From: Elusimicrobiales bacterium
GTDB taxonomy: Bacteria > Elusimicrobiota > Elusimicrobia > Elusimicrobiales > UBA9959
Direction of reading: 5' to 3'
NCBI GenBank assembly: GCA_036171915.1
Contig: JAVHRY010000008.1
Coordinates: forward strand, 1 to 63,674
DNA: 63,674 nucleotides
The translations under genes and the position numbers were made by a program. Shown piece by piece: positions 33,958 through 54,473 of the stretch (its first letter is position 1; every line of letters begins with the position of its first letter). The notes beneath the pieces were generated by a model that had not been told where the DNA came from, searched no databases, and worked only from the letters and a program-made list of their open reading frames with translations.

Positions 33958-34119
33958 ACGTGAATTTTAACATTTTTTAATACCTCCCCCGCAGTAGACT
34001 CCCCCGCCGTAGAGGCCGCACCTCAATTCCCCGGGGTTTGGCCGCCTCCCCTTCCCAATCCCAATCCCCTTCCCCTTCTTAAAAAGCCACGGGACAATTG
34101 TTGTATAATTTACTTCCCT

Positions 34120-35325: not shown

Positions 35326-35476
35326 CAGTCTGCTGAAAAAGCCCTTTTCGGTTGCTTTCGGCCTGCGGCTTCGTTGCTCGTCGTTTACAGGCCCAACGGG
35401 CCTGCCCGCTTCTCGCGCCTTGCCTGGGCTTGAAATCGCCTCAAAATATTACCGAGGGGGCTTTTTCAGCAGACTG
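35326..35476. repeat. 151-bp element bounded by perfect 19-bp terminal inverted repeats (MITE-like or structured RNA)
   Basis: CAGTCTGCTGAAAAAGCCC (35326-35344) is the exact reverse complement of GGGCTTTTTCAGCAGACTG (35458-35476). TTAG is present on both outer flanks (35322-35325 and 35477-35480). Confidence 0.6.
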
Positions 35477-35808
35477 TTAGTGCGTCCATATAGATTCACC
35501 GGGCGAAGCGGCACAGCCTCCACTATGGGAATCTTTGCCGGTATGCCGTATACGGCTGCGCTGGAAGAAAAAACCAGGGTCTTTACTGCTGCCCCGCGCA
35601 TAGCATTGAGAAGATTAAGGGTATGTACAACATTATTGCGGTAATACTTGGCCGGATCCGCAACAGATCCGCCTACCGCGGTATATGCTGCAAAATTATC
35701 GAACACAATAGTTTTCAGGCCGCTTTCAGAAAGCAGTTTATTGGTTTGGGAGCCAATGTAGCCAGCCCCCCCGACGATGAGAAGATACTGTTTTAGCCAA
35801 TAGCGCAA
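35449..35808 (-). pseudogene. Decayed UDP-glucose 4-epimerase (galE) remnant
   Basis: It has a TTG-only start. LLIVGGAGYIGS...VFDNF jumps directly to AAYTAVGGSVADPAKYYRNNVVHTLNLLNAM...VFSSSAAVYG...NLYGRT and then ends. Relative to E. coli GalE it lacks ~45 internal aa and the whole C-terminal half. The frame terminates inside the right TIR of the adjacent element, and the segment is visibly lower in GC. Confidence 0.7.
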
Positions 35809-35813
35809 AAACC

Positions 35814-36743
35814 TTAAAAGTTTATGCGTTCTTTCTCTATTACCAGCGGGCGTTTGAGGGTCTGGGTGTAGATGGCGCCGATATATTCGCCTATGACGCC
35901 CAGGAAGATAAGCTGCACCGAGGAAAAGAAGAACAGGCCGATCACCACGGGCGCTATTCCCAGTGAAAAATTATTCCAGAAGACTAGTTTGTAGATAAAA
36001 TATCCTGCCGCCACCGCCAGGTTGACAGTGGCCAGCAGGGCGCCGGAAAAAATAGCCAGGCGCAGCGGCACCTTGGAATGGTTAATTATCCCCAGCATGC
36101 CCACATCGTAGAGCCGGTAAAAATTAGCCGTGGTCAGGCCGCGTTGGCGCGCCGGCTGGAAATATTCCACCTGGGCGGCCTCGAAGCCCAGTTCCGAGAC
36201 AAGGCCTCGGAAAAACGGGTAGGGCTCATCAAGCTTGCGCAGCTGGTCCATTACTTCGCGGTCATAAAGGCCGAACCCCGTGCTGTTCTTGATTATATTA
36301 ACGTCGGCCAGCCCATCCACCAGGTGGTAGTAAAGTCTGCGCAGCGCGAACATGGAGGCGGACTCGCCGCTGTTGGTTTTTATGCCCAGCACCACTTTAC
36401 TCCCTTCCTCCCAGCGGCGCAGGAAGTCGGCTATAAGTTCGGGGGGGTCCTGCAGGTCGGCCACCAGCAGGATGACGGCGTCCCCGCAAGCCTGGGTCAT
36501 GCCGTAAAAAGGCGAACGGATCCAGCCGAAGTTGCGGGTGTTTATTATTACCTTAACGCCGGCGTCGGCGGCGGCCAGCCGCCTGAGCACGCCCTGGGTG
36601 CCGTCGGTGGAGGCGTTGTCGATAAACAAATGTTCATAATCGTAAGAGCCCAGCTGCCTGAAGACCTCCTTTACCTTTAGATAAAGGGCTTCCACGTTGG
36701 CCTCTTCGTTATAGCAGGGCGTAACAATGCTTATTTTTTTCAT
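35814..36743 (-). CDS. GT2 polyprenyl-phosphate glycosyltransferase (GtrB/ArnC-like, two C-terminal TM helices)
   Basis: 309 aa with ISIVTPCYNEEANV, FIDNASTDGT and LLVADLQDPPE, plus two C-terminal hydrophobic helices. Confidence 0.8.
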   Translation of the reverse strand: MKKISIVTPCYNEEANVEALYLKVKEVFRQLGSYDYEHLFIDNASTDGTQGVLRRLAAADAGVKVIINTRNFGWIRSPFYGMTQACGDAVILLVADLQDPPELIADFLRRWEEGSKVVLGIKTNSGESASMFALRRLYYHLVDGLADVNIIKNSTGFGLYDREVMDQLRKLDEPYPFFRGLVSELGFEAAQVEYFQPARQRGLTTANFYRLYDVGMLGIINHSKVPLRLAIFSGALLATVNLAVAAGYFIYKLVFWNNFSLGIAPVVIGLFFFSSVQLIFLGVIGEYIGAIYTQTLKRPLVIEKERINF

Positions 36744-36778
36744 ACGGGCGTCCTTTGCCGCTGCAGCCGCGCTAAAAG

Positions 36779-37834
36779 CTAAACCTTAAAACTTAATACC
36801 GTCCGCGTAAAACCTTCCTTTATCCCCACCACGGGGTTCCAGCCCAAGGCCCTTGCCCGGGAAGAATCCAGGCAAATGCGTTTGATGGGGCTCTGAATGT
36901 ATGCCAGCCGGCTTTTTGCTTTTACGAACTTTACCGCTATTTTCTTATCCGGGAACAGGTTTACAAGCGTGTCAGCCAGCCCCGCTATGCTTACGCAGGC
37001 CCTGTCGTTACAGACGTTATAGGCTTTCCCTTTCTCCCCTTTCAACATTACAAGGAACAGCCCCAGCACCGCGTCGGCGACGTAGCAGAAAGACCGCTCG
37101 GCCGCGCCGTCGCTGGTCAGTTCTATGTCGTGCCCGGTAACCACGTCCCGGACAAAATCGGCAAAGACGCGCCCGTCGTTAAAATCAAGGCCGGGGCCGT
37201 AAGTGTGGGCCAGCCTGGCTATAGCTGCCGGCACGCCGTATTGGTGATGCCAGGCCACGCACATAGTTTCACCGGCGCGTTTGCCTTCGGCGTAGCAGGA
37301 GCGCACGTCTACCGTATCCAGCCAGCCGTAATCGTTTTCTTTGGTGGGAACTTTCTCAGCCGGGACAATGCCGTAGACCTCGCCGCCGCTTACGAACAGG
37401 AAACCTTTGCATTTGCCGGCCCTGGCAAGTTCCAGCAGGTTGAAAGTGCCCACGACATTGGGCGAGATAGTGCCCGCCGGGTCGGTGCCGTAATACTTGG
37501 GGCTGGCCTGGCTTGCGGCATGGATAATATAGTCCACGGGCGCGGTTATCTTTAACGGGGCCGTAACATCCTGCACCACCAGCTCAAAGTCCGCCCTTTC
37601 CAGGAATTCAGAGAATTTGACCCCGGCTTTTTCCCGGTTTCTTACCAGCGCTATAACACGGCACTCACGCCCTTTAAGCCGGGTTTCGTTCAGCGCCAGC
37701 AGCGTGGTTGTAAGGTAGTACGGTATCATGCCGCCGGCCCCGGTTACCAGCACGGTGGCGCCGGCGAACGCCTGCCACAAGTCCCCGCCGGCCTCCATTA
37801 TCTTTTCTATATCTTCTTTAACGATGTGGTTCAT
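36779..37834 (-). CDS. NAD-dependent epimerase/dehydratase/reductase (extended SDR)
   Basis: 351 aa with VLVTGAGGMIPYYL, IIHAASQASP and YAEGKRAGE (YxxxK). Confidence 0.75.
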   Translation of the reverse strand: MNHIVKEDIEKIMEAGGDLWQAFAGATVLVTGAGGMIPYYLTTTLLALNETRLKGRECRVIALVRNREKAGVKFSEFLERADFELVVQDVTAPLKITAPVDYIIHAASQASPKYYGTDPAGTISPNVVGTFNLLELARAGKCKGFLFVSGGEVYGIVPAEKVPTKENDYGWLDTVDVRSCYAEGKRAGETMCVAWHHQYGVPAAIARLAHTYGPGLDFNDGRVFADFVRDVVTGHDIELTSDGAAERSFCYVADAVLGLFLVMLKGEKGKAYNVCNDRACVSIAGLADTLVNLFPDKKIAVKFVKAKSRLAYIQSPIKRICLDSSRARALGWNPVVGIKEGFTRTVLSFKV

Positions 37835-37837
37835 TAT

Positions 37838-38809
37838 TTACTTCTTTAGGTACCCGGCTATTTCCGCTTTGCGGCTTCCGTGCACGAAAAAGAAATTGGT
37901 GCACATAACGGTATCGTCCATTATTTTCATGGGCAGCAGTTTATCCTTCTCAATGGCGTAGCAGGCGTAGCCGAGCGGCGCCAGCAGGGCGATAATATCG
38001 TTAGGATGATAATTGAATTTTGCCGCCCACTTGCGGAGCATTTCCACGAACAGGATGGGCCGGTATTTTTTTATGGTTTCAAGGCCGCCTTTTATAACCA
38101 GCAGCTCCGCGCCTTCCACGTCGCACTTTATAAAATCGAGGCCCCGCACGCCGTTTTCGCGCACAAAGTCGTCCAGCCTTTCGCTTTTAACCGAAACCGC
38201 GACGGCGTCTTCGGTCTCCCGGATATTGCGCATGGAGGTGGCGCCCAGTTCTTTTTTGTTCAGGTAAAAAGTGTTGACAGCTTTTTTATCGCTCAGCGCG
38301 ATCTTGTGCAGGGAAATATTATCAAAGCCGTTCAGCGCCAGGTTCTGTTCCAGAATTGCCGCGGTGTACGGGATGGGTTCGAACACGTGTATCTTGCCGC
38401 CGGGGATCTTGCGGGCGATATTCATTGCTATCCAGCCCGTGTTGCCGCCAATGTCGAAAACGGTGTCCCCGGCGCGCACCAGGCCGAGTATCAGCTCCAT
38501 TTCTTCCGGCTCATAGTCGCCCACGGCCAGCATACGGAGCGGGATGTTGGAGACGTCTTCAAAGACCAGGACGTGCTTTACCCCGAATCTTTTGCCCACG
38601 CCGCAGACGCCGGCCCCGGTAATGCGCAGCTCCGCCAGTTCGGTCCCTTTTATCAGCTCCGAGTACTGCCGGAGCACGCCGTTTTTGGCCAGCATGGTTT
38701 GGAAGTATTCGTGTTTAGGCAGCTTGCCTTCAAGGTAGGCTTTTTTAAGTTCCACTACGGTCAGGTCTTTTGATTCCATAATATTTATCCGTTCACGGCT
38801 TTGTGCCAC
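37838..38809 (-). CDS. FkbM-family SAM-dependent methyltransferase
   Basis: 323 aa with VFDIGGNTGWIAMNIA, VFEPIP, IALSD and IKCDVEGAE. Confidence 0.8.
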   Translation of the reverse strand: MAQSRERINIMESKDLTVVELKKAYLEGKLPKHEYFQTMLAKNGVLRQYSELIKGTELAELRITGAGVCGVGKRFGVKHVLVFEDVSNIPLRMLAVGDYEPEEMELILGLVRAGDTVFDIGGNTGWIAMNIARKIPGGKIHVFEPIPYTAAILEQNLALNGFDNISLHKIALSDKKAVNTFYLNKKELGATSMRNIRETEDAVAVSVKSERLDDFVRENGVRGLDFIKCDVEGAELLVIKGGLETIKKYRPILFVEMLRKWAAKFNYHPNDIIALLAPLGYACYAIEKDKLLPMKIMDDTVMCTNFFFVHGSRKAEIAGYLKK

Positions 38810-39843
38810 AAGAGCGTTTTTTTTATAGCCTCGTCTATGCCAACCTTTATTTTAAGGCCTAGCTCGCTTTGGGACGCTTTCACATCCGGGACGAACCGGG
38901 AGCGGTGCTGCTGCTTATGATCCTTTGAGGCCAGCACAATTTCCGGCTGCGGGGTAAAGTTGGCTGCTATTTTATCGGCAAGCTCTTTCAGCGTTACGCC
39001 GCAAGGGCTGCCCACATTATAAATGCGCCCCGATTCCCCCGCCGCCAGTATCCGCAGCAGCCAGAAGGCCAGGTCGCTGGGGTACATATAACTGCGGACG
39101 GTCTTTTCATCGCCCAGTATGTTTATGGGGCCGCCTCTTAGGGCGTCGTTGATGAAATTATTAACGGCCCAGGGTTTATCCAGCAGTTGGTAGGGGCCGA
39201 TAAAGGCGAAGGGCCGGGCCGTAACCACCGGCATCTTGAACTGGTTGCGGTGCGCGGCGCACAGCGTTTCAGAAAAGCGTTTGGCCTCAGCGTAAACGGA
39301 CATTATGGACGAGCAGTCCGGACCGCCGGAATAGCTTTCCGGCATAGCCTCGAGAGCAAGCGGCTGGGGCCCGTAAACAAGGCCGGAACTGATATTCAGT
39401 AATTTCTTCAGCCCGCTTATGCGCGAGGCCGCGGCCAGCACGGACTCGGTGCCCTTTGAAACCACGTCCATAACGCGCAAAGGGTCGGAAGAATGCAGCC
39501 GGTTGTCCGGGTTTGCCGCGGCGTGGATAACGTGGGTAACGTCTTCGTCTATCTCCAGTATATTCCGCACGTCCTTATCAATCAAAAAAACGTCCCCGCG
39601 CCCGGCCAGGTGCGGCGCCCCTGCTTTAAACTGCGAGGCGTGCCTGGCTAAGAGCTGCATCTTGATCTGGTACCCGTACTGGTCGTTAAGGAAAGCCAGC
39701 GTCTCAACCAGCCAGCTGCCGACAAAGCCGGTACCGCCGGTGATCAGGATCTTGCCGCCTTTCAGCGGGGAAAGCAGGTTATTATCGTCCTTAAGGACTT
39801 CTTCCACGTCGTTTTTTATCTTGCTTATGGCTGTGGGGTTCAT
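38785..39843 (-). CDS. NAD-dependent epimerase/dehydratase/reductase (extended SDR)
   Basis: 352 aa with ILITGGTGFVGSWL, VIHAAANPD and YAEAKRFSE (YxxxK). Confidence 0.75.
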   Translation of the reverse strand: MNPTAISKIKNDVEEVLKDDNNLLSPLKGGKILITGGTGFVGSWLVETLAFLNDQYGYQIKMQLLARHASQFKAGAPHLAGRGDVFLIDKDVRNILEIDEDVTHVIHAAANPDNRLHSSDPLRVMDVVSKGTESVLAAASRISGLKKLLNISSGLVYGPQPLALEAMPESYSGGPDCSSIMSVYAEAKRFSETLCAAHRNQFKMPVVTARPFAFIGPYQLLDKPWAVNNFINDALRGGPINILGDEKTVRSYMYPSDLAFWLLRILAAGESGRIYNVGSPCGVTLKELADKIAANFTPQPEIVLASKDHKQQHRSRFVPDVKASQSELGLKIKVGIDEAIKKTLLWHKAVNG

Positions 39844-40853
39844 TTGGGTTCCTTCTTACCGGAAAGCTGTATGGCCACTTCCACTATCAGGTCTTCCTGG
39901 CCGGCTACTACCCGCCTTTTGCCCAGCTCGAAAAATATATCCCTGGGGTCCACGCCGTATTCCCTGGCCACCCGCTCCACGTGTTTGGCGAAACCGGAGA
40001 ACACCCCGGCCAGGCCGCTCACGATACTGACGGGCTTGGGGAACGGCAGCACCTTCATCAGCTCTTTTTCGGCGATGTCGCTGGCGTCCAGGATATGGTA
40101 CAGGTCCACGCCGGTGGAATAGCCCATCTTTTCGAAAACGCCTATAAGCAGTTCTATGGGCGTATTGCCGGCCCCCGCGCCGAAGCCGCGGGCGGAGCCG
40201 TCTATAATTGCGGCGCCGGCTTCGGCCGCGGCCACCGAATTAGCTACGGCAAGCCCCAGGTTGTTGTGCGCGTGAAAACCGACGGGGATATTAAGCGCCT
40301 TTACCAGCGCGCCCACTTTGTCGGTTACGTCCTGCTGCAGGTAAGCGCCGGCGGAATCCATAAGGATAACGCCCTGGGCTCCATACACCTCCATTTTAAG
40401 GGCTTCCTCGACCAGGGTTTCCTTGGGCACCATGTGCGACATCATCAGCACGCCGTATACATCTTTGCCTCTTGAGCGGGCATAGGAGATATGCCGCTCG
40501 GTAAGGTCAGCCTCGGTACAGTGGGAAGCCACGCGCACAACGTCCGCCCCGGCGTCGATGGCGGGCTTAAGGTCTTTGTTTATGGTGGCGAAACCGGGAA
40601 TAATAAAGACGCCAAGCTTTGATCTATGAATGCTCTCCCGGGCCACCTTAAGCATTTCCATGTCCGGCAGCAGGCTTTCCCCCACCTGCAGGGAAGAAGC
40701 GCCCAGGCCGTTGCCATGGCCGACTTCAATTACGGGGACGCCGGCCTTGTCGGCCGCGGCGGCGTACGCGCGCACCTGCGCGGCGCTAAGCTGGTGGGCT
40801 ACGGCGTGCGAGCCGTCCCTTAAAGTTACGTCGTGGATAATTAGTTTATGCAT
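39840..40853 (-). CDS. 4-hydroxy-2-oxovalerate aldolase-like (DmpG/MhpE/BphI family, DRE-TIM)
   Basis: 337 aa with IIHDVTLRDGSHA, GFHAHNNLGLAVANS and a C-terminal DmpG communication-domain-like segment. Confidence 0.85.
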   Translation of the reverse strand: MHKLIIHDVTLRDGSHAVAHQLSAAQVRAYAAAADKAGVPVIEVGHGNGLGASSLQVGESLLPDMEMLKVARESIHRSKLGVFIIPGFATINKDLKPAIDAGADVVRVASHCTEADLTERHISYARSRGKDVYGVLMMSHMVPKETLVEEALKMEVYGAQGVILMDSAGAYLQQDVTDKVGALVKALNIPVGFHAHNNLGLAVANSVAAAEAGAAIIDGSARGFGAGAGNTPIELLIGVFEKMGYSTGVDLYHILDASDIAEKELMKVLPFPKPVSIVSGLAGVFSGFAKHVERVAREYGVDPRDIFFELGKRRVVAGQEDLIVEVAIQLSGKKEPK

Positions 40854-40859
40854 GCTTCC

Positions 40860-41750
40860 TCAGATTACCCCGTTGAGCTTCTTCGCGTATTGCTCGGCCA
40901 TGGCTATGGCGGCGCAGTTTATGATGTCGAGGTTGCCGGCATAGCTGGGGAGATAATCCCCCAGCCCCTGCACCCGCACCATCATCAGTATCGTATTGTT
41001 CTCCAGGGTAGGTTCGACCACAAGCTTATAACCGGGAACGTAAGCGTGTATTACAGCGACTATTTCCTTTATCCTTTCAACAAGTTCCGGCATATCGGGA
41101 TTTAAAACCCTGGCGCGCACGGTGGTCTGCATATTTATGCAGGGCTGGGCGGGGTTCAGCACCAGCACGGCCTTGGTCCGTTTGGCGCCGGAAAATTTCT
41201 TAAGGCCGCGCTCCGTAGTCTCCACGTATTCGTCCAGGTTGGCCCTGGTAGCTGGCCCGGCGCTGCGCGAAGAAATGGTGGAGACGGCCTCTATGTACTC
41301 CACGTCCTTATGAACCTGCCCCAGCACATAGGCGAGCGGGATTGAGGCCTGCCCGCCGCAGGTGATCATGTTAACGTTCTTAAGGTTAAGACAGTCCTTA
41401 AGGTTTACTCCGGGCACGCACATGCCGCCCACCTGGGCCGGGGTAAGGTCTATGGCTATTTTTCCCAGCTTTGCCAGGATGGGCGCGTGTATTTTATGGC
41501 TGCCGGCGGAGGTGGCGTCAAAGACCAGGTCGCAGCAGGAGGGGTCCTGAACTATGGCGTCTATGCTCCGGTCGGAGATCTTAACGCCCAGGCTTAAGGC
41601 CTTGGCCATGCCTTTGGACTGCAGGTTCCTGCCGATAAAAAGCGAACACTCCAGCCAGGGAGAGCGCATTATCTTGACCATCAGGTCGGTGCCGATAAGC
41701 CCGCTGCCCAGTATGGCCGTCTTTATTTTCTTCCGGTTTTCATCTTTCAT
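40860..41750 (-). CDS. Acetaldehyde dehydrogenase (acetylating), DmpF/MhpF-like
   Basis: 296 aa with AILGSGLIGTDLMVK and the catalytic-Cys motif NMITCGGQASIP. Confidence 0.85.
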   Translation of the reverse strand: MKDENRKKIKTAILGSGLIGTDLMVKIMRSPWLECSLFIGRNLQSKGMAKALSLGVKISDRSIDAIVQDPSCCDLVFDATSAGSHKIHAPILAKLGKIAIDLTPAQVGGMCVPGVNLKDCLNLKNVNMITCGGQASIPLAYVLGQVHKDVEYIEAVSTISSRSAGPATRANLDEYVETTERGLKKFSGAKRTKAVLVLNPAQPCINMQTTVRARVLNPDMPELVERIKEIVAVIHAYVPGYKLVVEPTLENNTILMMVRVQGLGDYLPSYAGNLDIINCAAIAMAEQYAKKLNGVI

Positions 41751-43588
41751 TTTTTTCCAGCCCCGGCGCTTTCACCGGCCGCGCACTCGGCCAGGTACTC
41801 TTCCCTCGGGAGGAACGGGAACATGTCGTCGTAAGACATGGAGGCCATTTTACCGTTCTCCAGCTTCTTTGAGGCCACGCGCGGTATCAGCAGCTGCAGC
41901 GGCGGGTTAATGACCTCGCAGATAACCGGGCCGCGCATGGCGCGCAGTTGTTTCAGCTTCGCGGCAAGTTCCGTTCCTTTGGCTATCCGCAGGTACCGGA
42001 TACCATAAGCCCCGGCTATCTTTTTAAGGTCCGGGAAGCTTACGCCCGTGGCGGCGCTTTCCCCCATCAGCCGGCCGCCGCAGAAATTTTTCTGCGTGTG
42101 GCGGATAAGCAGGTAGCCGGAATTATTGGAAATTATGAACTTTACCGGCAGCTTGTTGTGCACCACGGTCTGGAATTCCTGCAGGTTCATCTGCAGGGAG
42201 CCGTCGCCGGTAATGCAGTAGACGTCCCGGCCTTTTGCCGCGGCCGCCACGCCGGTGGAGGCGGGGCTGTAGCCCATGGTGGACAGGCCGCCGGTGATGA
42301 TATGACGCTGCCCGAATTTAACCTTGAAAGCCTGGGCGTGCACGTGGAAGCAGGACCCAGTATCCACCAGGAAGATGTCTTTGTTTGACGCCGTGTCCGA
42401 GAGTACCCGGGTGAAGTGGTAGGAGTTGATGCCGTTTTTTTCTTTTGCATATTCCGGCAGATCTACCGGGTATTTGTCCTTCCAGCCCCGGGTAACCTTA
42501 AGCCACTCGGTGTTCTCGGGCATTTTAGACGGCAGCCGCTTTATGAGCTCCCGCAGAAATTGCGCGGCGTCGGCCATTATGGGGATATCCGGCTCCACGG
42601 AAGGCTTTGTAAGTTCGGTCTCGTCTATATCCACCATTATCTTAACGGCTTTAGGAGCGAAACCCTGGTAATCGTAACCCACCAGGCCTACGCCCAGCCG
42701 GCAGCCTATGGTTAAGAGCAGGTCGCAGTGCTGGGTGACGAAGTTGGCGGGTCTGTCACCGTAAGTGCCCGGGTGCCCGACGAACAAAGGGTGGTCGAAA
42801 CCTATAAGGTCCAGGCCCAGGCGGGAAGTTAGAACCGGGATGCCTGCCTTTTCGGCGAACCTATGCAGCAGGCTTACGGCCCCCGAAAGGCGGACGCCCG
42901 CGCCGGCGAGTATGCAGGGGCGCCGGCTTTTCAGCAGGGCGGCAATTACGGCCCTCATCTGGCTCTCCGCTATATAGGGCTCCCCCACTTCCGAGGCGTA
43001 AGGAGAAAAGCCTTTGTATTCGGCGGGATCGAACTTCATGTCCTGCACATCGATGGGGCATTCAAGGTAGACCGGCCCCACGCGGCCGGACTTCGCCATG
43101 TATACGCACTTTTCCACTTCGTAGCGGACTTTGGCGATATCGTCCAGCATAACGGCGTACTTGGTGAAATGCTTGAAGATAGGCAGGGTGTCAAAGCCCT
43201 GCAAAGGGAACTGGCGTACCCCTTTCACTTTAGCCAGGGCGGCCTTGGACTGCCCGCCGACTATGATACACGGCGAAGAATCCACGTAAGCGCCCACCGC
43301 CCCGGTAATGGTATTCAGGACGCCGGGACCGGCGGTAACGTAAGCCACCCCCAGTTTGCCCGTATAACGGCCATAAGCCTCGGCGGCCATGGTGGCGGCC
43401 TGCTCGTGATGGCAGCAGATATATTTTATTTTTTTATTACGGAACAAGGCGTCCGTAAGGTGCATTATCATGCCGCCGGTAATGACAAAAACGTGCCCGC
43501 AGCCGGCCTCGTACATCTGTTGGGTTATATAATCGGCTACGGATATTGTCATATTATGCCTCTTAACCGCCTGTCGTTCAGTTTCCAC
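41747..43588 (-). CDS. Thiamine-diphosphate-dependent enzyme, acetolactate-synthase-large-subunit/YerE-like
   Basis: 613 aa. The N-terminal Pyr domain (ITGGMIMHLTDAL, HEQAATMAAEAY) and the C-terminal ThDP motif GDGSLQMN...ISNN are present. Confidence 0.85.
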   Translation of the reverse strand: METERQAVKRHNMTISVADYITQQMYEAGCGHVFVITGGMIMHLTDALFRNKKIKYICCHHEQAATMAAEAYGRYTGKLGVAYVTAGPGVLNTITGAVGAYVDSSPCIIVGGQSKAALAKVKGVRQFPLQGFDTLPIFKHFTKYAVMLDDIAKVRYEVEKCVYMAKSGRVGPVYLECPIDVQDMKFDPAEYKGFSPYASEVGEPYIAESQMRAVIAALLKSRRPCILAGAGVRLSGAVSLLHRFAEKAGIPVLTSRLGLDLIGFDHPLFVGHPGTYGDRPANFVTQHCDLLLTIGCRLGVGLVGYDYQGFAPKAVKIMVDIDETELTKPSVEPDIPIMADAAQFLRELIKRLPSKMPENTEWLKVTRGWKDKYPVDLPEYAKEKNGINSYHFTRVLSDTASNKDIFLVDTGSCFHVHAQAFKVKFGQRHIITGGLSTMGYSPASTGVAAAAKGRDVYCITGDGSLQMNLQEFQTVVHNKLPVKFIISNNSGYLLIRHTQKNFCGGRLMGESAATGVSFPDLKKIAGAYGIRYLRIAKGTELAAKLKQLRAMRGPVICEVINPPLQLLIPRVASKKLENGKMASMSYDDMFPFLPREEYLAECAAGESAGAGKK

Positions 43589-44906
43589 AAAAAACCGCGA
43601 AGGTCTTCGCTATATACTTCAGCATTTTCCCGGTCAGGCCGGGGTAAACGCCTATCCAGAAAGTCCGGTCAAGGATGGTGTCCGTATTCTCAAGTTTCCC
43701 GGCGACGCGATAGCCTTTCCCGGTTTTACGCATTTCGTCGAAGCAGGGGTGTTTTATCAGGTTGCCGGCGAACAGCATGCGGGTCTGGATCTTGTTCTTT
43801 TCCAGGTGGGCCACAAGTTGGCCGCGCGTGAAACCGGCGTCCTCTTTTACGGTGATCAGGAAGCCGAACCAGCTGGGCTCCGCGCCGGGAGTGGGCGCGG
43901 GCAGGATAAGCTGTTTAGCGTATGGCTGCAGGGCTTGGCGCAGGTAGGCCCAGTTCTTCCTGCGGGCCTCCACAAAGGCCGGGAACTTCTTAAGCTGGGC
44001 CAGGCCCACGGCGGCCTGCATTTCGGTGGCCTTAAGGTTGTAGCCGAAGTGGGAATAGACGTATTTGTGGTCGTAGCCAGGCGGCAGCGCGCCGTACTGG
44101 CGGATAAACCGGTTATGGCAGGTATTGTCCGTGCCGGAAGCGCACCAGCAGTCCCGGCCCCAGTCGCGGAAAGATTCTATAAGGCGTTTCAGCAGCGGGT
44201 CGTTAGTGTAAACGGCGCCGCCCTCGCCCATGGTCATGTGGTGCGGCGGGTAGAAGCTGGAAGTGCCGATGTCGCCATAGCTGCCGGTGAACTTGCCGGC
44301 ATAGCGGGAGCCGAGCGCGTCGCAGTTGTCCTCAACAAGCCAAAGGTCGTGCTTAACGCAGAAGGCTTTTACGGCTTTTATATTGAAAGGATTCCCCAGT
44401 GTGTGGGCCAGCATTACGGCTTTTGTCTTGTTAGAAAGGGCCTTTTCAAGCATGGCGCAGTTGATGTTATAGGAAGGCAGTTCCACATCCACGAACACCG
44501 GCACCGCGCCATACTGTATGATGGGCGTGACGGTAGTGGGGAAGCCCGCGGCCACGGTTATAACCTCGTCGCCGGGCTTTATCCGCCGCTTGCCCAGCTT
44601 GGGCGAGGTGAGGGCCATAAAAGCCACAAGGTTAGCGGAGGAACCGGAATTCACAAGTGAGACATACTTTACGCCGAGATAGGCCCCGAACTGTTTCTCG
44701 AATTCAGCGCAATAGCGCCCAGACGTAAGCCAGAAGTCCAGCGCGGAATCGGTAAGGTTTATCATCTCCTTATCGTCGTAAACGCGCCCGCCGTAATTAA
44801 TAAAGGTTTCCCCGGGCCTGAAAGCCGGCTTCCGGTGGAACTTCTTATAGTAAGCGGTTACCTTCTTGAAGATTTCGCGGCGGGCTTTAAGTTCTGGTTC
44901 GGTCAT
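43578..44906 (-). CDS. rfbH: CDP-6-deoxy-4-keto-hexose 3-dehydrase (E1; RfbH/DdhC/AscC)
   Basis: 442 aa, DegT-fold. SFYPPHHMTMGEGG has His in place of the Schiff-base Lys. The CxCx7C motif DCWCASGTDNTC is the E1-type 2Fe-2S site. Confidence 0.88.
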   Translation of the reverse strand: MTEPELKARREIFKKVTAYYKKFHRKPAFRPGETFINYGGRVYDDKEMINLTDSALDFWLTSGRYCAEFEKQFGAYLGVKYVSLVNSGSSANLVAFMALTSPKLGKRRIKPGDEVITVAAGFPTTVTPIIQYGAVPVFVDVELPSYNINCAMLEKALSNKTKAVMLAHTLGNPFNIKAVKAFCVKHDLWLVEDNCDALGSRYAGKFTGSYGDIGTSSFYPPHHMTMGEGGAVYTNDPLLKRLIESFRDWGRDCWCASGTDNTCHNRFIRQYGALPPGYDHKYVYSHFGYNLKATEMQAAVGLAQLKKFPAFVEARRKNWAYLRQALQPYAKQLILPAPTPGAEPSWFGFLITVKEDAGFTRGQLVAHLEKNKIQTRMLFAGNLIKHPCFDEMRKTGKGYRVAGKLENTDTILDRTFWIGVYPGLTGKMLKYIAKTFAVFCGN

Positions 44907-44931
44907 ATTTAAATAAGGTTGAGGCTCCAGG

Positions 44932-46032
44932 TCACTTACCGGTGGTATACTCCATTATCTGTTTTAGACATACGGCGTGCATATCTTCTTTAGCGGAGTA
45001 AGCGCGGGTCCAATCGATAATTTTATCGATGGCGGTGCCTATGTGCCAGCGGGGCCGCCAGGCGAGTTCCCGGCGGGCTTTGGCGGAATCCAGCTTAAGG
45101 TAGTGGGCCTCGTGCGGATGGCGGCCTTTGTCTATTACGTAACCGGGGGCCTCGGGCCAGGCGGAGAACATGCGCTTAACTATCCATTTCACGTCTTTGG
45201 CGTCGCCGGCGTCCGGGCCGAAGTTCCAGGCCTGGCCGTACTTTGCGCCATGGGTGTAAAGCTTTTCCGCCAGCAGCAGATAGCCGCTGAGCGGTTCCAG
45301 CACGTGCTGCCAGGGGCGGATGGCGCGCGGGTTGCGGATAAGGACCTTTTTCCCCTTAAGGGCGGCGAGGATCAGGTCCGGGATAAGGCGGTCGGCCGCC
45401 CAGTCCCCGCCGCCTACGACATTCCCTGCACGCGCCGTAGCCAGGGCTACGCCGTGCTTTTTATAATCCGCGGGGTTAAAGAAAGAATTGCGGTAAGCGG
45501 AAGTTACCAGTTCCGAGCAGCCCTTGCTGGAAGAATAGGGATCGTAACCGCCCATAGGTTCGTCCTCGCGGAAGGCCCGGGCATGCTCTTTGTTCTCGTA
45601 GCATTTGTCCGTGGTAACATTCACCACGGCCTTTACCGAAGGGCAGGCCCGCACGGCCTCCAGCAGGTTCACCACGCCCATTACGTTGGTTGCGTAGGTG
45701 TCGGCCGGGTTGCGGTAGGATTCCCTCACCAGCGGCTGGGCGGCCATGTGTATTACTATCTGGGGCTTGGCGGCCAGTAAAACTTTTTTTAATTTGGCGG
45801 CGTCGCGTATGTCGCCGATATGGGATTTTATCCTTTTATCAAGGCGGCCCAGTTCGAAAAGGCTGGGCTTTGTCGGGGGCTTAAGGGCGTAGCCTGTAAC
45901 TTTAGCGCCGAGCGCGTCCAGCCAGATGGAAAGCCAGGCGCCTTTAAAGCCGGTGTGCCCGGTGAGGAAGACTCTTTTACCCTTCCAGGAATTTATTCCC
46001 ATATTTTCCAGGGAGCTTTGCCGGTCTGCCAC
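44932..46032 (-). CDS. rfbG: CDP-glucose 4,6-dehydratase
   Basis: 366 aa with WKGKRVFLTGHTGFKGAWLSIWL and YSSSKGCSE (YxxxK). The start may be the internal Met at 46002. Confidence 0.9.
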   Translation of the reverse strand: MADRQSSLENMGINSWKGKRVFLTGHTGFKGAWLSIWLDALGAKVTGYALKPPTKPSLFELGRLDKRIKSHIGDIRDAAKLKKVLLAAKPQIVIHMAAQPLVRESYRNPADTYATNVMGVVNLLEAVRACPSVKAVVNVTTDKCYENKEHARAFREDEPMGGYDPYSSSKGCSELVTSAYRNSFFNPADYKKHGVALATARAGNVVGGGDWAADRLIPDLILAALKGKKVLIRNPRAIRPWQHVLEPLSGYLLLAEKLYTHGAKYGQAWNFGPDAGDAKDVKWIVKRMFSAWPEAPGYVIDKGRHPHEAHYLKLDSAKARRELAWRPRWHIGTAIDKIIDWTRAYSAKEDMHAVCLKQIMEYTTGK

Positions 46033-46769
46033 AGGTTTTCAAGTTCGGTCTTGTCGCGCAGGGTGTCCATGCATTTCCAGAAGCCGGTGTGCTTATAAGC
46101 GGCAAGTTTGTCCCGGGCGGCTAATGCCTCCAGCGGGCCACGCTCCCAGATAGTGGAGTCGCCGTCTTTAATGTAATTAAAAATTCCAGGCTGAAGGACG
46201 AAGAACCCGCCGTTTATCCAGGCGCCGTCGCCCCGCGGCTTCTCCTTAAAAGACCGGATAGCGCCGCTGGCCTTCATTTCTATGGCGCCGAAGCGCCCCA
46301 GGTTCTGTACAGCCGTCATGGTAGCCAACCCCCCGCTCTTTCTATGAAAAGCGGCAAGCTTCTTAATGTCCACGTCGGCCACGCCGTCGCCGTAGGTAAG
46401 CATGAAAGGATTTTTACCGATATATTCCTGCACGCGCTTTATGCGGCCCCCGGTCATAGTATTAAGCCCGGTATCCACCAGGGTCACCTTCCAAGGTTCC
46501 GCTTTTTTATGGTGCACTTCCATCTTGTTGTTCTTCATGTCTATGGTAACGTCGGCCTGGTGCAGAAAGTAGTTAAAAAAATATTCCTTTATCAGGTAGC
46601 CCTTGTAGCCCAGGCAGATCACAAAATCTTTAAAGCCGTAATGCGAGTAGCCCTTCATGATGTGCCAGAGCAGGGGCCTTTCCCCTATCTCGGCCATGGG
46701 TTTGGGTTTCAGGTAGGTTTCTTCGCTAAGCCGCGTTCCCCTACCACCGGCAAGTATTACCACTTTCAT
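45993..46769 (-). CDS. rfbF: Glucose-1-phosphate cytidylyltransferase
   Basis: 258 aa with VVILAGGRGTRLSEET..KPKPMAEIGERPLLWHIMK. Confidence 0.92.
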   Translation of the reverse strand: MKVVILAGGRGTRLSEETYLKPKPMAEIGERPLLWHIMKGYSHYGFKDFVICLGYKGYLIKEYFFNYFLHQADVTIDMKNNKMEVHHKKAEPWKVTLVDTGLNTMTGGRIKRVQEYIGKNPFMLTYGDGVADVDIKKLAAFHRKSGGLATMTAVQNLGRFGAIEMKASGAIRSFKEKPRGDGAWINGGFFVLQPGIFNYIKDGDSTIWERGPLEALAARDKLAAYKHTGFWKCMDTLRDKTELENLWQTGKAPWKIWE

Positions 46770-46836: not shown

Positions 46837-46986
46837 CTAAATTTTATCAGCCGGCACGTTTACCGCGCGGCCGTTTTTCCAAATGGCAAGCGGGCGGCCG
46901 GTTTTTTTATGGTCAGCTACTACCTTGCGCACGGCCACCTTCATAGCCACTTCGGCCTTATCCTGCATTGACAGTCTTTTTTTCAT
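46837..46986 (-). CDS. 49-aa ORF translationally coupled to the zeta-like kinase (possible antitoxin or partner)
   Basis: Below the track cutoff and translated by hand: MKKRLSMQDKAEVAMKVAVRKVVADHKKTGRPLAIWKNGRAVNVPADKI. Its ATG overlaps the upstream TGA stop as ATGA. Confidence 0.5.
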   Translation of the reverse strand: MKKRLSMQDKAEVAMKVAVRKVVADHKKTGRPLAIWKNGRAVNVPADKI

Positions 46987-47561
46987 AGTTGTTTTTTACC
47001 GGTGATCCCGGAGTAAATTCCGTCATTTTCAATAATAACGCTGCCATTGGCGCCTTTAGCCGCCAGCACGGGGGTAACCCCCGAATTGTCAAAAAGCATC
47101 CAGCTGTGCGTAAAAGGCTGGTAGACGTTAAAGAAATTATCGATAGACCTGCCGAAGCGGCGCGTAACGTCCACGGCGGGGACATTGTGGCCGCCGTCGG
47201 CCACCCGGTTCTTTACGCGGAGCAGGGAAAGCTCGGAGCAGGGGACCCAGAGAAAAAAGATATGGACGCCATACCCCTCCTCCTCCAGCCTGCGGAACAG
47301 CCTTAAATGCGTCTTCCCCGACAAAGTAGTTTCAAAGCCGAAATCGGCCCCGCTTTTTGAAAATTCGTGGATGCGGCTAAGCACCAGCCTGCCGGCCTTT
47401 ATGGCGGCGGAGCGCGGGGCGAAAGGGGACAGGCCCTGGGCTATCAGGTCGGCGTTCACGAAGTTGGGGCATTTAGCGTAGTTAGGCAGGAACTCCCGGG
47501 CGAAGGTGGTTTTACCCGAGCCGTTAGGCCCCGCCACCACGTAAACGTTCTTGTTCGCCAT
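46983..47561 (-). CDS. Zeta-toxin-family P-loop kinase
   Basis: 192 aa with Walker A VVAGPNGSGKTT, FVNADLI and FETTLSG, and a size and layout like zeta/PezT-type nucleotide-sugar kinases. Its ATG overlaps the manC stop (TAATG). Confidence 0.7.
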   Translation of the reverse strand: MANKNVYVVAGPNGSGKTTFAREFLPNYAKCPNFVNADLIAQGLSPFAPRSAAIKAGRLVLSRIHEFSKSGADFGFETTLSGKTHLRLFRRLEEEGYGVHIFFLWVPCSELSLLRVKNRVADGGHNVPAVDVTRRFGRSIDNFFNVYQPFTHSWMLFDNSGVTPVLAAKGANGSVIIENDGIYSGITGKKQL

Positions 47562-54462: not shown

Positions 54463-54473
54463 AAATTCTTTTC

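What the first reader, a model, noticed from the sequence alone, without database searches (positions are those of the whole stretch)
39840..46769. CDP-3,6-dideoxyhexose genes fused in one operon to a ThDP enzyme and a DmpF/DmpG-like pair: candidate pathway for a C-branched or chain-extended sugar
Seen in sequence: rfbF, rfbG and an E1-type 3-dehydrase are followed, with overlapping or near-abutting stops and starts, by three further genes. The E1 hallmarks are His replacing the PLP Lys in SFYPPHHMTMGEGG and a CxCx7C 2Fe-2S motif. The three downstream genes are an acetolactate-synthase-like ThDP enzyme (GDGS...NN), an acylating acetaldehyde dehydrogenase (catalytic Cys in ITCGGQASIP) and a 4-hydroxy-2-oxovalerate aldolase (DVTLRDGSHA). 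Established: in Yersinia pseudotuberculosis the ThDP flavoenzyme YerE adds a pyruvate-derived two-carbon branch to CDP-3,6-dideoxy-4-ketohexose to make yersiniose. DmpFG normally act in aromatic meta-cleavage, but no hydratase, dioxygenase or hydrolase of that pathway is present here. Inference: DmpF/G may run in the synthetic direction (acetyl-CoA to acetaldehyde, plus pyruvate to 4-hydroxy-2-oxovalerate). That would supply an unusual 2-oxoacid donor to the ThDP enzyme and give a longer hydroxyalkyl branch than yersiniose. Alternatively they may supply pyruvate or acetaldehyde locally. No E3 (AscD/RfbI-type) reductase partner for E1 is encoded in the window.
Basis: partly seen in the sequence, partly recalled or inferred. 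Interest (0 to 1): 0.72.

Follow-up and report, generated by a model that had tools for sequence, protein, structure and literature searches.

The report
Erwiniose-type branched-sugar gene cluster

Summary
On the minus strand, rfbF, rfbG and rfbH(E1) are followed by a ThDP enzyme, an acylating acetaldehyde dehydrogenase and a 4-hydroxy-2-oxovalerate aldolase. Every quoted motif is present, and no E3 is encoded in the window.

The operon continues beyond the given coordinates: SDR reductase, FkbM methyltransferase, second SDR, then a GT2 ending at 35814.

The pair would run "backwards" to make 4-hydroxy-2-oxopentanoate as donor for the ThDP enzyme. This is the published erwiniose pathway (ErwE/F/I/J; Steitz et al. 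2022, PMC9306805).

- The ThDP enzyme fails every AHAS equivalog cutoff. Its best solved relative is the YerE-like enzyme JanthE.
- The ThDP–dehydrogenase–aldolase module recurs in 74 of 80 related genome loci, bacterial and archaeal.
- Of 36 aldolase-anchored metagenome loci, 35 carry a ThDP gene.

Not found in the papers I could read: these sugar-linked aldolases carry Phe at BphI Tyr290 and Phe/His at Leu87. Those positions, when engineered, switch BphI from (4S) to (4R). ErwE uses the (4R) acid.

ErwE's own sequence could not be retrieved. The FkbM/SDR2 tailoring steps are unresolved.

Verdict: new member of a known kind, moderate interest.

The parts
45993..46769 (-). rfbF/ddhA: glucose-1-phosphate cytidylyltransferase (258 aa), which makes CDP-glucose
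   Evidence: TIGR02623 equivalog, 428 bits against a cutoff of 300. Pfam NTP_transferase.
44932..46002 (-). rfbG/ddhB: CDP-glucose 4,6-dehydratase (356 aa as called; the ORF extends to 46032)
   Evidence: TIGR02622 equivalog, 502 bits against a cutoff of 278. The gene call comes from identical public contigs.
43578..44906 (-). rfbH/ddhC (E1): PMP- and 2Fe-2S-dependent CDP-6-deoxy-L-threo-D-glycero-4-hexulose 3-dehydrase (442 aa)
   Evidence: NF011936 RfbH, 732 bits against a cutoff of 423. His222 replaces the Schiff-base Lys within SFYPPHH. Cys195, 253, 255 and 263 are invariant in 60 homologues.
41747..43552 (-). YerE-like ThDP carboligase (601 aa). Predicted to decarboxylate 4-hydroxy-2-oxopentanoate and add the C4 acyl unit to C-4 of the CDP-4-keto sugar.
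   Evidence: It has three TPP_enzyme domains. It falls below every AHAS cutoff. Its best solved relative is JanthE 8rph at 400 bits and 35.7% identity, against PpYerE at 229 bits and E. coli IlvB at 228 bits. Glu50 and GDGS…NN are present. It is adjacent to the dehydrogenase and aldolase in 74 of 80 related loci.
40860..41750 (-). ErwJ/DmpF-like acylating acetaldehyde dehydrogenase (296 aa). Predicted to reduce acetyl-CoA to acetaldehyde.
   Evidence: TIGR03215, 377 bits against a cutoff of 282. Cys131 is conserved in 75 of 76 sequences. PDB relatives are 7z3s, HsaG 4jn6_B and DmpF 1nvm_B. It overlaps the ThDP stop codon by 4 nt.
39840..40853 (-). ErwI/DmpG-like class II pyruvate aldolase (337 aa). 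Predicted to make (4R)-4-hydroxy-2-oxopentanoate from pyruvate and acetaldehyde.
   Evidence: TIGR03217, 405 bits against a cutoff of 286, and the DmpG_comm domain is retained. Catalytic and metal residues R12, D13, H16, H194 and H196 are conserved. F285 sits at the DmpG Tyr291 / BphI Tyr290 position, and F83 at the Leu88 / Leu87 position. It falls in a clade separate from catabolic DmpG and HsaF.
38785..39843 (-). SDR1: extended short-chain dehydrogenase (352 aa). Candidate ErwF/YerF-type reductase of the side-chain C-1' ketone.
   Evidence: Pfam Epimerase, 125 bits. It lies immediately downstream of the aldolase in 47 of 80 genome loci and 34 of 36 metagenome loci. PDB hits were uninformative.
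37838..38779 (-). FkbM-family SAM methyltransferase (313 aa as called). Predicted tailoring step, probably O-methylation.
   Evidence: TIGR01444, 108 bits, and Pfam Methyltransf_21. It co-occurs with SDR2 inside the module in 9 of 80 genome loci and in several metagenome loci.
36779..37834 (-). SDR2: second extended SDR (351 aa, 28% identical to SDR1). Acts as a second reductase or an epimerase; role unresolved.
   Evidence: Pfam Epimerase, 141 bits. In Paenibacillus loci L025 and L042 it is the only SDR in the module.
35814..36743 (-). GT2 glycosyltransferase of the PgfS/ArnC (polyprenyl-phosphate sugar synthase) type (309 aa). Possible transfer of the finished sugar to a lipid carrier.
   Evidence: Pfam Glycos_transf_2. 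NCBIfam PgfS scores 190 bits and ArnC 107 bits, both below their cutoffs. A homologue of at least 48% identity follows the module in 17 of 80 genome loci and in about 14 metagenome loci.

Best explanation
This is an erwiniose-type pathway for an acyl-branched CDP-3,6-dideoxyhexose, set in the surface-glycan island of an uncultured groundwater Elusimicrobiota bacterium.

Proposed steps:
1. RfbF, RfbG and the E1 dehydrase convert glucose-1-phosphate to CDP-4-keto-3,6-dideoxy-D-glucose. E1 would draw electrons from a reductase encoded elsewhere.
2. The DmpF-like dehydrogenase runs in reverse, reducing acetyl-CoA to acetaldehyde with NADH. The acetaldehyde passes to the DmpG-like aldolase with which it probably still forms a complex.
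3. The aldolase condenses acetaldehyde with pyruvate to give (4R)-4-hydroxy-2-oxopentanoate.
4. The YerE-like ThDP enzyme decarboxylates this acid. It then adds the resulting 3-hydroxybutanoyl carbanion to the C-4 ketone of the CDP-sugar, creating a tertiary alcohol.
5. SDR1 reduces the side-chain ketone to give a 4-C-(1,3-dihydroxybutyl) branch, the erwiniose skeleton.
6. FkbM and SDR2 then tailor the sugar by methylation plus a further reduction or epimerisation.
7. The PgfS/ArnC-like GT2 passes it on for incorporation into the glycan.

Shown here: gene identities, motifs, the conserved linkage, the residue signature, and the published biochemistry of ErwE and BphI. Inferred: every catalytic step for these particular proteins, the direction of the dehydrogenase/aldolase pair, the (4R) stereochemistry, and all tailoring and transfer steps.
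For: **Gene identities.** Family models and motifs for all ten genes.

**Published precedent.**
- The P. atrosepticum cluster has the same components: a ThDP enzyme ErwE, a reductase ErwF, an acetaldehyde dehydrogenase ErwJ and a BphI-like aldolase ErwI, next to the CDP-deoxy-keto-sugar genes.
- ErwE used 4-hydroxy-2-oxopentanoate with a ketone acceptor, rejected pyruvate, and selected the (R) enantiomer.

**The ThDP enzyme is not an AHAS.**
- It scores 355 bits against the 538-bit cutoff of TIGR00118, and falls below all other AHAS models.
- Its best solved relative is JanthE, a YerE-like ketone-accepting carboligase, at 400 bits. PpYerE and AHAS score 228-231 bits.

**ThDP-anchored linkage.**
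- 74 of 80 genome loci, from many bacterial phyla and from archaea, have the dehydrogenase and aldolase within 6 kb of the ThDP gene.
- Among loci of at least 20 kb, 46 of 47 have the pair and 40 of 47 have rfbH.

**Aldolase-anchored linkage.** Of 36 metagenome loci with at least 3 kb on both sides, 35 have a ThDP-family gene, 35 the dehydrogenase, 34 an SDR1-like gene and 23 rfbH.

**Stereochemical signature.**
- All 77 aldolases in the genome set, and 78 of 79 scorable sequences in the metagenome alignment, have Phe at the BphI Tyr290 position.
- At the Leu87 position they have Phe or His (73 of 77, and all 79 scorable).
- DmpG, HsaF and 8ih7 have Leu and Tyr at these positions.
- In BphI, Y290F abolishes (4S) control, and L87W/Y290F and L87N/Y290F are (4R)-specific.
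- The Phe-type aldolases form a clade apart from the catabolic Leu/Tyr type.

**Aldehyde size.** The BphI Leu89 position, which limits aldehyde length, is Ile here. That fits a short aldehyde.
Against: - No enzyme of this window has been assayed.
- ErwE's own sequence could not be retrieved, so orthology to ErwE is untested. The window enzyme is only 35.7% identical to JanthE and 31% to PpYerE.
- JanthE, the nearest characterised relative, is promiscuous and also accepts pyruvate. Context alone therefore does not fix the donor.
- No E3 reductase is present in the window, and only 1 of 160 related loci has one. Formation of the 3,6-dideoxy-4-keto acceptor depends on an unidentified electron donor.
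- The (4R) prediction transfers mutagenesis results from BphI, which is a homologue rather than this enzyme. The solved catabolic relatives are 44-47% identical to the window aldolase.
- The roles of FkbM, SDR2 and the GT2 are guesses.
- No transcript data exist; the public runs found were labelled DNA.
Confidence: 0.75

Rival explanations
1. Yersiniose-type C2 branch. The ThDP enzyme uses pyruvate as YerE does. The dehydrogenase/aldolase pair only balances local pools of pyruvate, acetaldehyde and acetyl-CoA, or acts on the side chain after branching.
For: YerE uses pyruvate. JanthE, the closest solved relative, accepts pyruvate among many donors. The window enzyme has not been tested.
Against: - A pyruvate-using enzyme has no need for a dedicated aldolase/dehydrogenase pair, yet the pair is adjacent in 74 of 80 and 35 of 36 related loci.
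- ErwE, from the same gene context, rejected pyruvate, and Steitz et al. explicitly tested and discarded the 'aldolase after branching' order.
- The aldolase carries a conserved signature predicting the (4R) acid that ErwE selects.
Confidence: 0.1
2. Same logic but a different aldehyde. The dehydrogenase reduces propionyl-CoA or another short acyl-CoA, so the aldolase makes 4-hydroxy-2-oxohexanoate and the branch is C5 or longer.
For: Catabolic homologues handle both acetaldehyde and propionaldehyde. ErwE converted 4-hydroxy-2-oxohexanoate even better than the pentanoate, 76% against 49%. Several distinct ThDP lineages pair with this aldolase type.
Against: - The position that limits aldehyde length in BphI (Leu89) is the equally bulky Ile in 64 of 77 sugar-linked aldolases.
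- Acetyl-CoA is the abundant substrate.
- The only natural product tied to this gene set, erwiniose, has a C4 branch.
Confidence: 0.1
3. Coincidental neighbours. The ThDP gene is an acetolactate synthase and the pair is a remnant of an aromatic meta-cleavage pathway, unrelated to the CDP-sugar genes.
For: Public annotations call the ThDP homologues 'acetolactate synthase'. The dehydrogenase and aldolase pass the NCBIfam equivalog cutoffs built on catabolic enzymes.
Against: - The ThDP enzyme falls below all AHAS cutoffs.
- Pfam scans of the window found no AHAS small subunit and no ilv genes.
- The same scans found no hydratase, dioxygenase or hydrolase of the meta-cleavage pathway.
- Start and stop codons overlap within the operon.
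- Linkage is conserved across phyla.
- The aldolase clade and residue signature are distinct from the catabolic type.
Confidence: 0.02

Closest known systems
Erwiniose biosynthetic gene cluster of Pectobacterium atrosepticum SCRI1043 (ErwE, ErwF, ErwJ, ErwI plus CDP-deoxy-keto-sugar genes; Steitz et al. 2022, PMC9306805)
   Same: It has the same component set: genes for CDP-4-keto-3,6-dideoxyglucose, a YerE-like ThDP carboligase, a BphJ/DmpF-like acetaldehyde dehydrogenase, a BphI/DmpG-like pyruvate aldolase and an NAD(P)H reductase, all in one surface-polysaccharide cluster. It has the same predicted logic, with aldolase-made 4-hydroxy-2-oxopentanoate as the ThDP donor.
   Different: - The gene order here is ThDP-dehydrogenase-aldolase-SDR. 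The accession numbering suggests E-F-J-I in Pectobacterium.
- This cluster has an extra FkbM methyltransferase, a second SDR and a PgfS/ArnC-like GT2.
- The host is an uncultured Elusimicrobiota bacterium.
- Sequence identity to ErwE/F/I/J could not be measured. P. atrosepticum was not among the 80 best genome loci, all of at least 47% identity, so ErwE is probably a different ThDP lineage.
YerE/YerF yersiniose A pathway of Yersinia pseudotuberculosis, and the homologue PpYerE (PDB 5ahk)
   Same: The acceptor sugar is the same, and so is the chemistry: ThDP-dependent acyl-anion addition to the C-4 ketone followed by side-chain reduction.
   Different: YerE uses pyruvate and gives a C2 branch. 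It has no aldolase/dehydrogenase pair. The window enzyme is only 31% identical to PpYerE, at 229 bits, which is no closer than E. coli IlvB at 228 bits.
JanthE from Janthinobacterium sp. HH01 (PDB 8rph/8rpi/8rpj)
   Same: It is the closest solved structure, at 400 bits and 35.7% identity. It is a YerE-like enzyme that accepts ketones and 4-hydroxy-2-oxovalerate. JanthE-type genes occupy the same position, between rfbH and the dehydrogenase/aldolase pair, in 27 metagenome loci.
   Different: JanthE has a CDG motif in place of GDG, whereas the window enzyme has the canonical GDGS. It belongs to a separate lineage, about 35% identical.
Catabolic aldolase-dehydrogenase complexes DmpFG (1nvm), BphIJ and HsaFG (4jn6)
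   Same: They share the fold and catalytic residues, including Arg/Asp/His, two metal-binding His and the dehydrogenase Cys. They share the communication domain and the adjacent gene pair. Identity to the aldolases is 44-47%.
   Different: - The window pair has no meta-cleavage or steroid-degradation neighbours.
- The predicted direction is synthetic.
- The stereochemistry-determining Tyr290 and Leu87 are replaced by Phe and Phe/His.
- The window aldolase sits in a separate clade.
Caryophyllose (MMAR_2331/2332), gastriose (MyGE/MygI) and R. palustris CGA009 branched-sugar clusters
   Same: They follow the same 'aldolase makes a hydroxylated 2-oxo acid, YerE-like enzyme attaches it' scheme. The R. 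palustris cluster also carries a SAM methyltransferase.
   Different: Those use a different aldolase family (citrate-lyase/HpcH-like) and longer C6-C7 donors. They have no acetaldehyde dehydrogenase.

Membership tests
Erwiniose-type acyl-branched-sugar cluster (Steitz et al. 2022) | Genes for CDP-4-keto-3,6-dideoxyglucose (cytidylyltransferase, 4,6-dehydratase, E1 3-dehydrase) in the cluster | tested here: met
   All three pass their NCBIfam equivalog cutoffs. The E1 His and Cys hallmarks are present and invariant. E3 is absent.
Erwiniose-type acyl-branched-sugar cluster (Steitz et al. 2022) | YerE-like (non-AHAS) ThDP carboligase adjacent to the sugar genes | tested here: met
   It falls below all AHAS cutoffs. 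The best PDB hit is JanthE at 400 bits, against about 230 bits for AHAS. It starts 25 nt downstream of rfbH.
Erwiniose-type acyl-branched-sugar cluster (Steitz et al. 2022) | BphI/BphJ-like aldolase and acylating acetaldehyde dehydrogenase next to the ThDP gene | tested here: met
   TIGR03217 scores 405 bits and TIGR03215 scores 377 bits. The dehydrogenase overlaps the ThDP stop by 4 nt. The pair is conserved in 74 of 80 loci.
Erwiniose-type acyl-branched-sugar cluster (Steitz et al. 2022) | NAD(P)H-dependent side-chain reductase (ErwF/YerF-like) in the cluster | tested here: inconclusive
   Two extended SDRs are present. SDR1 follows the aldolase in most related loci. Neither orthology to ErwF nor the substrate could be tested.
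Erwiniose-type acyl-branched-sugar cluster (Steitz et al. 2022) | Sequence orthology of the ThDP enzyme to ErwE (WP_011093010) | not testable with these tools
   No available collection returned the ErwE sequence. P. atrosepticum is absent from the 80 best genome loci, and the paper's supplement is not held.
Erwiniose-type acyl-branched-sugar cluster (Steitz et al. 2022) | ThDP enzyme uses 4-hydroxy-2-oxopentanoate and not pyruvate; the product is a C4-branched 3,6-dideoxyhexose | not testable with these tools
   This needs enzyme assays and sugar analysis. The only indirect support is the (4R)-type aldolase signature.
Biosynthetic acetolactate synthase large subunit (IlvB/IlvI/IlvG) | Score at or above the curated equivalog cutoff | tested here: not met
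   TIGR00118 scores 355 bits against a cutoff of 538. All PRK AHAS models score 230-327 bits against cutoffs of 738-1084.
Biosynthetic acetolactate synthase large subunit (IlvB/IlvI/IlvG) | Partner small regulatory subunit or ilv gene context | tested here: not met
   Pfam scans found no ACT-domain small subunit and no ilvC or ilvD anywhere in the window.
Catabolic DmpFG/BphIJ meta-cleavage module | Protein-family membership of the aldolase and dehydrogenase | tested here: met
   Both pass their NCBIfam cutoffs. The aldolase is 44-47% identical to the solved catabolic aldolases.
Catabolic DmpFG/BphIJ meta-cleavage module | Neighbouring hydratase, dioxygenase or hydrolase genes of a meta-cleavage or steroid pathway | tested here: not met
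   None were found in the window. The neighbours in 160 related loci are ThDP, rfb and SDR genes.
Catabolic DmpFG/BphIJ meta-cleavage module | (4S)-determining residues Tyr290 and Leu87 (BphI numbering) | tested here: not met
   The window has F285 and F83. All 77 genome-set aldolases have Phe at the Tyr position, while DmpG, HsaF and 8ih7 have Tyr and Leu.
Yersiniose (YerE/YerF) pathway | ThDP enzyme acts with pyruvate alone, with no dedicated 2-oxo-acid-forming aldolase in the cluster | tested here: not met
   A conserved aldolase/dehydrogenase pair is present. Identity to PpYerE is only 31%.

The most novel reading that the evidence does not exclude
The cluster makes a sugar not yet described: an O-methylated, and perhaps epimerised, 4-C-(1,3-dihydroxybutyl)-3,6-dideoxyhexose. 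It is handed to a polyprenyl-phosphate carrier by a CDP-sugar-using PgfS/ArnC-type GT2. Its aldolase belongs to a large, naturally (4R)-selective subfamily of class II pyruvate aldolases. Evolution would have reached this with the same two-residue switch that engineers introduced into BphI. The subfamily serves at least four different ThDP carboligase lineages in bacteria and archaea, JanthE's among them, mostly without a cluster-encoded E3.
Probability: 0.35. Interest if true: 0.55.

Novelty: new member of a known kind. Interest (0 to 1): 0.35.

Why it matters
- **For the finding as stated:** little is new, because the predicted pathway was published in 2022. The value is a correct annotation. 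The genes that public sources label 'acetolactate synthase' and '4-hydroxy-2-oxovalerate aldolase / acetaldehyde dehydrogenase' here are sugar-branching enzymes.
- **Distribution:** this module is very widespread. It occurs in Elusimicrobiota, Omnitrophota, cyanobacteria, Paenibacillus, Desulfobacterota and Patescibacteria, and in methanogen and other archaeal genomes, two of them assembled chromosomes. C4-branched dideoxyhexoses may therefore be a common but chemically undetected feature of environmental cell surfaces.
- **Biocatalysis:** the conserved Phe/(Phe or His) signature gives a testable sequence marker for natural (4R)-selective pyruvate aldolases. It also offers a rationale for pairing them with ThDP carboligases that form tertiary alcohols.
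- **JanthE:** the data suggest the physiological substrates of JanthE, a characterised biocatalyst whose natural role is reported as unknown.

Tried and rejected
- **ErwE sequence.** I could not obtain ErwE, ErwF, ErwI or ErwJ. P. atrosepticum was not among the 80 genome loci returned, the paper's supplement is not held, and Krug 2024 and Lanza 2024 are not held. I left the third large homology search unused because the chance of surfacing ErwE in a top-120 list was low.
- **Promoters and terminators.** A scan of 35-48 kb gave counts at chance level: 9 promoter-like sites against 7.0±2.9 expected, and 19 terminator-like sites against 18.6±4.7. No operon boundary could be drawn from it. The only sizeable gap is the 213 nt upstream of rfbF, and it holds a small ORF.
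- **SDR function.** PDB searches for SDR1 and SDR2 returned only generic nucleotide-sugar SDRs such as UDP-glucuronate decarboxylase, so no function could be assigned.
- **Link to nearby glycan genes.** I tested whether the GT-C (PMT_2), Wzy_C or the kinase-like gene travel with the module. None has a homologue in the 160 related loci, so I dropped them from the system.
- **E3 candidate.** I considered the PyrK-like FAD/NAD/2Fe-2S protein at 3279-4115 as a substitute E3. I rejected it as cluster-linked because it sits in a NiFe-hydrogenase operon 36 kb away and has the iron-sulfur domain at the C-terminus.
- **RNA elements.** The Rfam scan found only a tRNA.
- **The 136-aa ORF at 33967-34377.** It overlaps the Wzy_C gene and has no Pfam hit, so I treated it as spurious.
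- **Transcription.** No RNA sequencing runs hold this sequence.

Full report
**1. What is there**

The region lies on the minus strand of a large surface-glycan island (about 30.7-56 kb). The island also encodes:
- dTDP-rhamnose genes (rmlA, rmlC, rmlD, rmlB, 52005-55352, plus a second rmlC-like gene);
- GDP-mannose-derived sugar genes (manC and two GDP-mannose-dehydratase-family genes, 47561-51114);
- glycosyltransferases, a Wzy_C-domain (O-antigen ligase/polymerase family) protein and a GT-C enzyme.

RfbF, RfbG and RfbH all pass their NCBIfam equivalog cutoffs (428, 502 and 732 bits). So do the acylating acetaldehyde dehydrogenase (377 bits) and the 4-hydroxy-2-oxovalerate aldolase (405 bits). 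The ThDP protein has the three canonical TPP_enzyme domains.

The E1 hallmarks are His222 in place of the PLP lysine, and Cys195, 253, 255 and 263. They are invariant in 60 homologues from related clusters.

Identical public contigs carry the same gene calls. They show that the ThDP gene starts at the ATG at 43552 (601 aa, not 613) and rfbG at 46002.

The genes abut or overlap: there are 4-nt overlaps at ThDP/dehydrogenase and at aldolase/SDR1. The functional unit is therefore about 35814-46769.

**2. Source organism**

- The sequence occurs in groundwater metagenomes, and the runs found were labelled DNA, with no RNA run holding the sequence.
- The window's phosphoglycerate kinase is 90-91% identical to proteins of Elusimicrobiales MAGs.
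- TonB/ExbBD genes indicate a diderm envelope.

**3.

A full-text search for 'erwiniose' led to Steitz et al. 2022 (PMC9306805).

- In Pectobacterium atrosepticum, a ThDP enzyme (ErwE) and a reductase (ErwF) sit beside a BphJ-like acetaldehyde dehydrogenase (ErwJ) and a BphI-like pyruvate aldolase (ErwI). The genes for CDP-4-keto-3,6-dideoxyglucose are in the same cluster.
ErwJ supplies acetaldehyde from acetyl-CoA. ErwI condenses it with pyruvate to 4-hydroxy-2-oxopentanoate. ErwE attaches the decarboxylated acid to the keto sugar. ErwF reduces the side chain.

A 2025 review treats 'YerE-like' enzymes as an established subclass. It cites an in-silico survey that identified more than 200 such enzymes by gene-cluster similarity.

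**4.

*(a) Is the ThDP enzyme a true acetolactate synthase?* No.
- It falls below every AHAS model cutoff, for example 355 bits against 538 for TIGR00118.
- Against solved structures, the best match by far is JanthE (8rph, 400 bits, 35.7% identity). JanthE is a characterised YerE-like enzyme that accepts ketones and 4-hydroxy-2-oxovalerate.
- PpYerE (229 bits) and E. coli IlvB (228 bits) tie well below it.
- The window has no AHAS small subunit and no ilv genes.

*(b) Is the aldolase/dehydrogenase pair catabolic in relatives?* No.
- A scan of one genome per species with a ThDP alignment returned 80 loci. They come from Elusimicrobiota, Omnitrophota, Fibrobacterota, Nitrospirota, cyanobacteria, Paenibacillus, Desulfobacterota, Patescibacteria and others. 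They also include archaeal genomes, among them two assembled chromosomes (Methanoregulaceae and Methanomassiliicoccales).
- In 74 of the 80 loci, the dehydrogenase and aldolase lie within 6 kb of the ThDP gene. Among loci of at least 20 kb, the figures are 46 of 47 for the pair and 40 of 47 for rfbH.
- The reverse test anchored on the aldolase in metagenomes. Of 36 loci with at least 3 kb on each side, 35 had a ThDP-family gene, 35 the dehydrogenase, 34 an SDR1-like gene and 23 rfbH.

**5. Additional observation: a stereochemical signature in the aldolase**

I aligned the window aldolase with DmpG (1nvm), HsaF (4jn6) and 8ih7.
- The catalytic Arg, Asp and His and both metal-binding histidines are conserved.
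- DmpG Tyr291 (BphI Tyr290) is Phe285 in the window protein. DmpG Leu88 (BphI Leu87) is Phe83.

| Position (BphI numbering) | 77 aldolases, genome set | Metagenome alignment | Solved catabolic enzymes |
|---|---|---|---|
| Tyr290 | Phe in 77/77 | Phe in 78 of 79 scorable | Tyr |
| Leu87 | His 43, Phe 30 | His 63, Phe 16 | Leu |

These are the two residues that flank C4 of the substrate in BphI. Wild-type BphI is strictly (4S). Y290F loses stereocontrol. L87W/Y290F and L87N/Y290F are (4R)-specific (PMC3962088).

The sugar-linked aldolases thus carry naturally what looks like both engineered solutions: a bulky aromatic or a polar residue at position 87, plus Phe at 290. This predicts a (4R) product, the enantiomer ErwE selects and the configuration found in erwiniose.

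Among cluster representatives at 50% identity, the Phe-type and the Leu/Tyr-type overlap in overall identity to the window (about 40-56% against 37-47%). They nevertheless separate into different clades in a neighbour-joining tree, built without bootstrap support.

I found no mention of this signature in the papers held. That is a limited library, so I do not claim priority.

The residue that limits aldehyde length in BphI (Leu89) is Ile here, which fits acetaldehyde.

**6. Diversity of the ThDP partner**

The same aldolase/dehydrogenase/SDR1 block pairs with at least four ThDP lineages:

| Lineage | Identity to the window enzyme | Notes |
|---|---|---|
| A | at least 56% | the window type; order ThDP-dehydrogenase-aldolase-SDR1 |
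| B | 45-55% | order dehydrogenase-aldolase-ThDP |
| C | 34-37% | JanthE-type: median 66% identity to JanthE, with its unusual CDG motif; 27 loci |
| D | 35-42% | small group of six loci with GDG |

ErwE's lineage could not be determined. P. atrosepticum did not appear among the 80 best loci, all of at least 47% identity.

**7. E3**

- No AscD-type reductase is present in the window, by motif scans and Pfam.
- Among 160 related loci, only one (L159, directly upstream of rfbF) encodes a protein with the CX4CX2CX30C ferredoxin motif plus FNR motifs.
- E1 in these organisms presumably relies on a reductase encoded elsewhere. From memory rather than from anything tested here, E1 can be reduced in vitro by other reductase systems.

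**8. Tailoring and transfer**

- SDR1 is the conserved partner downstream of the aldolase, and is the best candidate for the ErwF/YerF-type side-chain ketoreductase.
- FkbM and SDR2 travel together as an optional pair (9 of 80 genome loci, plus several metagenome loci). In two Paenibacillus loci SDR2 is the only SDR in the module, so it too may be a ketoreductase.
- Their exact reactions cannot be inferred. PDB comparisons were uninformative.
- A PgfS/ArnC-like GT2 follows the module here and in about 31 of 160 loci. This hints at transfer of the sugar to a polyprenyl phosphate, but both NCBIfam matches fall below their cutoffs.
- The nearby GT-C, Wzy_C and kinase-like genes are not conserved with the module.

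**9. Verdict**

The system is a new member of a published kind, the erwiniose-type acyl-branched sugar pathway. It sits in an uncultured Elusimicrobiota bacterium and has additional methyltransferase and SDR tailoring genes.

The core mechanism rests on homology, conserved linkage and the biochemistry of ErwE and BphI, not on any assay of these proteins. Confidence in the C4-branch model is about 0.75.

Three things give it moderate interest beyond the already-known core: the breadth of distribution, the natural (4R)-type aldolase signature, and the genomic context of JanthE-type enzymes.

Noticed in passing
L115, L118, L119, L125-L131, L150, L159 and others (27 metagenome loci): JanthE-type ThDP enzymes sit between rfbH and the dehydrogenase/aldolase/SDR1 block. 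They carry the CDG motif and have a median 66% identity to PDB 8rph. The literature says JanthE's physiological substrates are unknown. This context suggests CDP-4-keto-3,6-dideoxyhexose plus 4-hydroxy-2-oxopentanoate.
   Followed up: partly
L159:29-1042 (+): This is the only AscD-type E3 found in 160 related loci. It has an N-terminal CX4CX2CX30C ferredoxin motif plus RxYS and GxGxxP, and lies directly upstream of rfbF. Cluster-encoded E3 is therefore the exception in this family of clusters.
   Followed up: partly
L014 (OY970061.1, Methanoregulaceae chromosome), L052 (OY968769.1, Methanomassiliicoccales chromosome), L001/L002 (Altiarchaeales/Altiarchaeia), L076 (Methanoperedens): The ThDP-dehydrogenase-aldolase-SDR1 module, with rfbF and rfbH nearby, occurs in archaeal genomes, two of them assembled chromosomes, at 63-69% identity to the window ThDP enzyme. 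This implies inter-domain transfer of the branched-sugar pathway.
   Followed up: no
window 1163-5158 (-): A four-gene NiFe hydrogenase operon: large subunit, small subunit, a PyrK-like FAD/NAD/2Fe-2S subunit (3279-4115) and a 4Fe-4S subunit. The layout resembles group 3 (sulfhydrogenase-like) hydrogenases. It holds the only FNR-family flavoprotein in the window.
   Followed up: no
window 46983-47561 (-) and 46838-46986 (-): A zeta-toxin/AAA_33-like P-loop kinase gene is wedged between manC and rfbF. It is followed by a 49-aa ORF whose ATG overlaps the kinase gene's stop codon, and that ORF has no Pfam match. This may be a toxin-antitoxin-like pair or a sugar-nucleotide kinase. It is not conserved with the module in relatives.
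   Followed up: partly
window 35449-35808 (-): A 119-aa fragment of an SDR (Pfam Epimerase positions 70-145 only) lies at the end of the operon, converging on the plus-strand Wzy_C gene (34120-35325). One public contig of the same sequence (L081) also ends here. It looks like a truncated gene at a recombination or strain-variable junction.
   Followed up: no
window 53920-54462 (-) and 55392-55937 (-): Two dTDP-4-dehydrorhamnose 3,5-epimerase (RmlC) paralogues flank rmlA. An MBL-fold gene (51268-52068) overlaps the end of rmlB by 64 nt.
   Followed up: no
P0275, P0283, P0284, P0291 and about 70 more representatives: A large group of roughly 660-710-aa proteins contains a DmpG-like aldolase domain with RDY instead of RDH. 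They carry Phe and His at the two stereochemistry positions. They form a third subfamily of unknown role, 33-40% identical to the window aldolase.
   Followed up: no
window 62916-63611 (-); 18435-18510 (+); 24409-24492 (-): An IS200-like Y1 transposase sits near the right end of the window. tRNA-Ala(GGC) and tRNA-Leu(GAG) genes lie in the left half.
   Followed up: no
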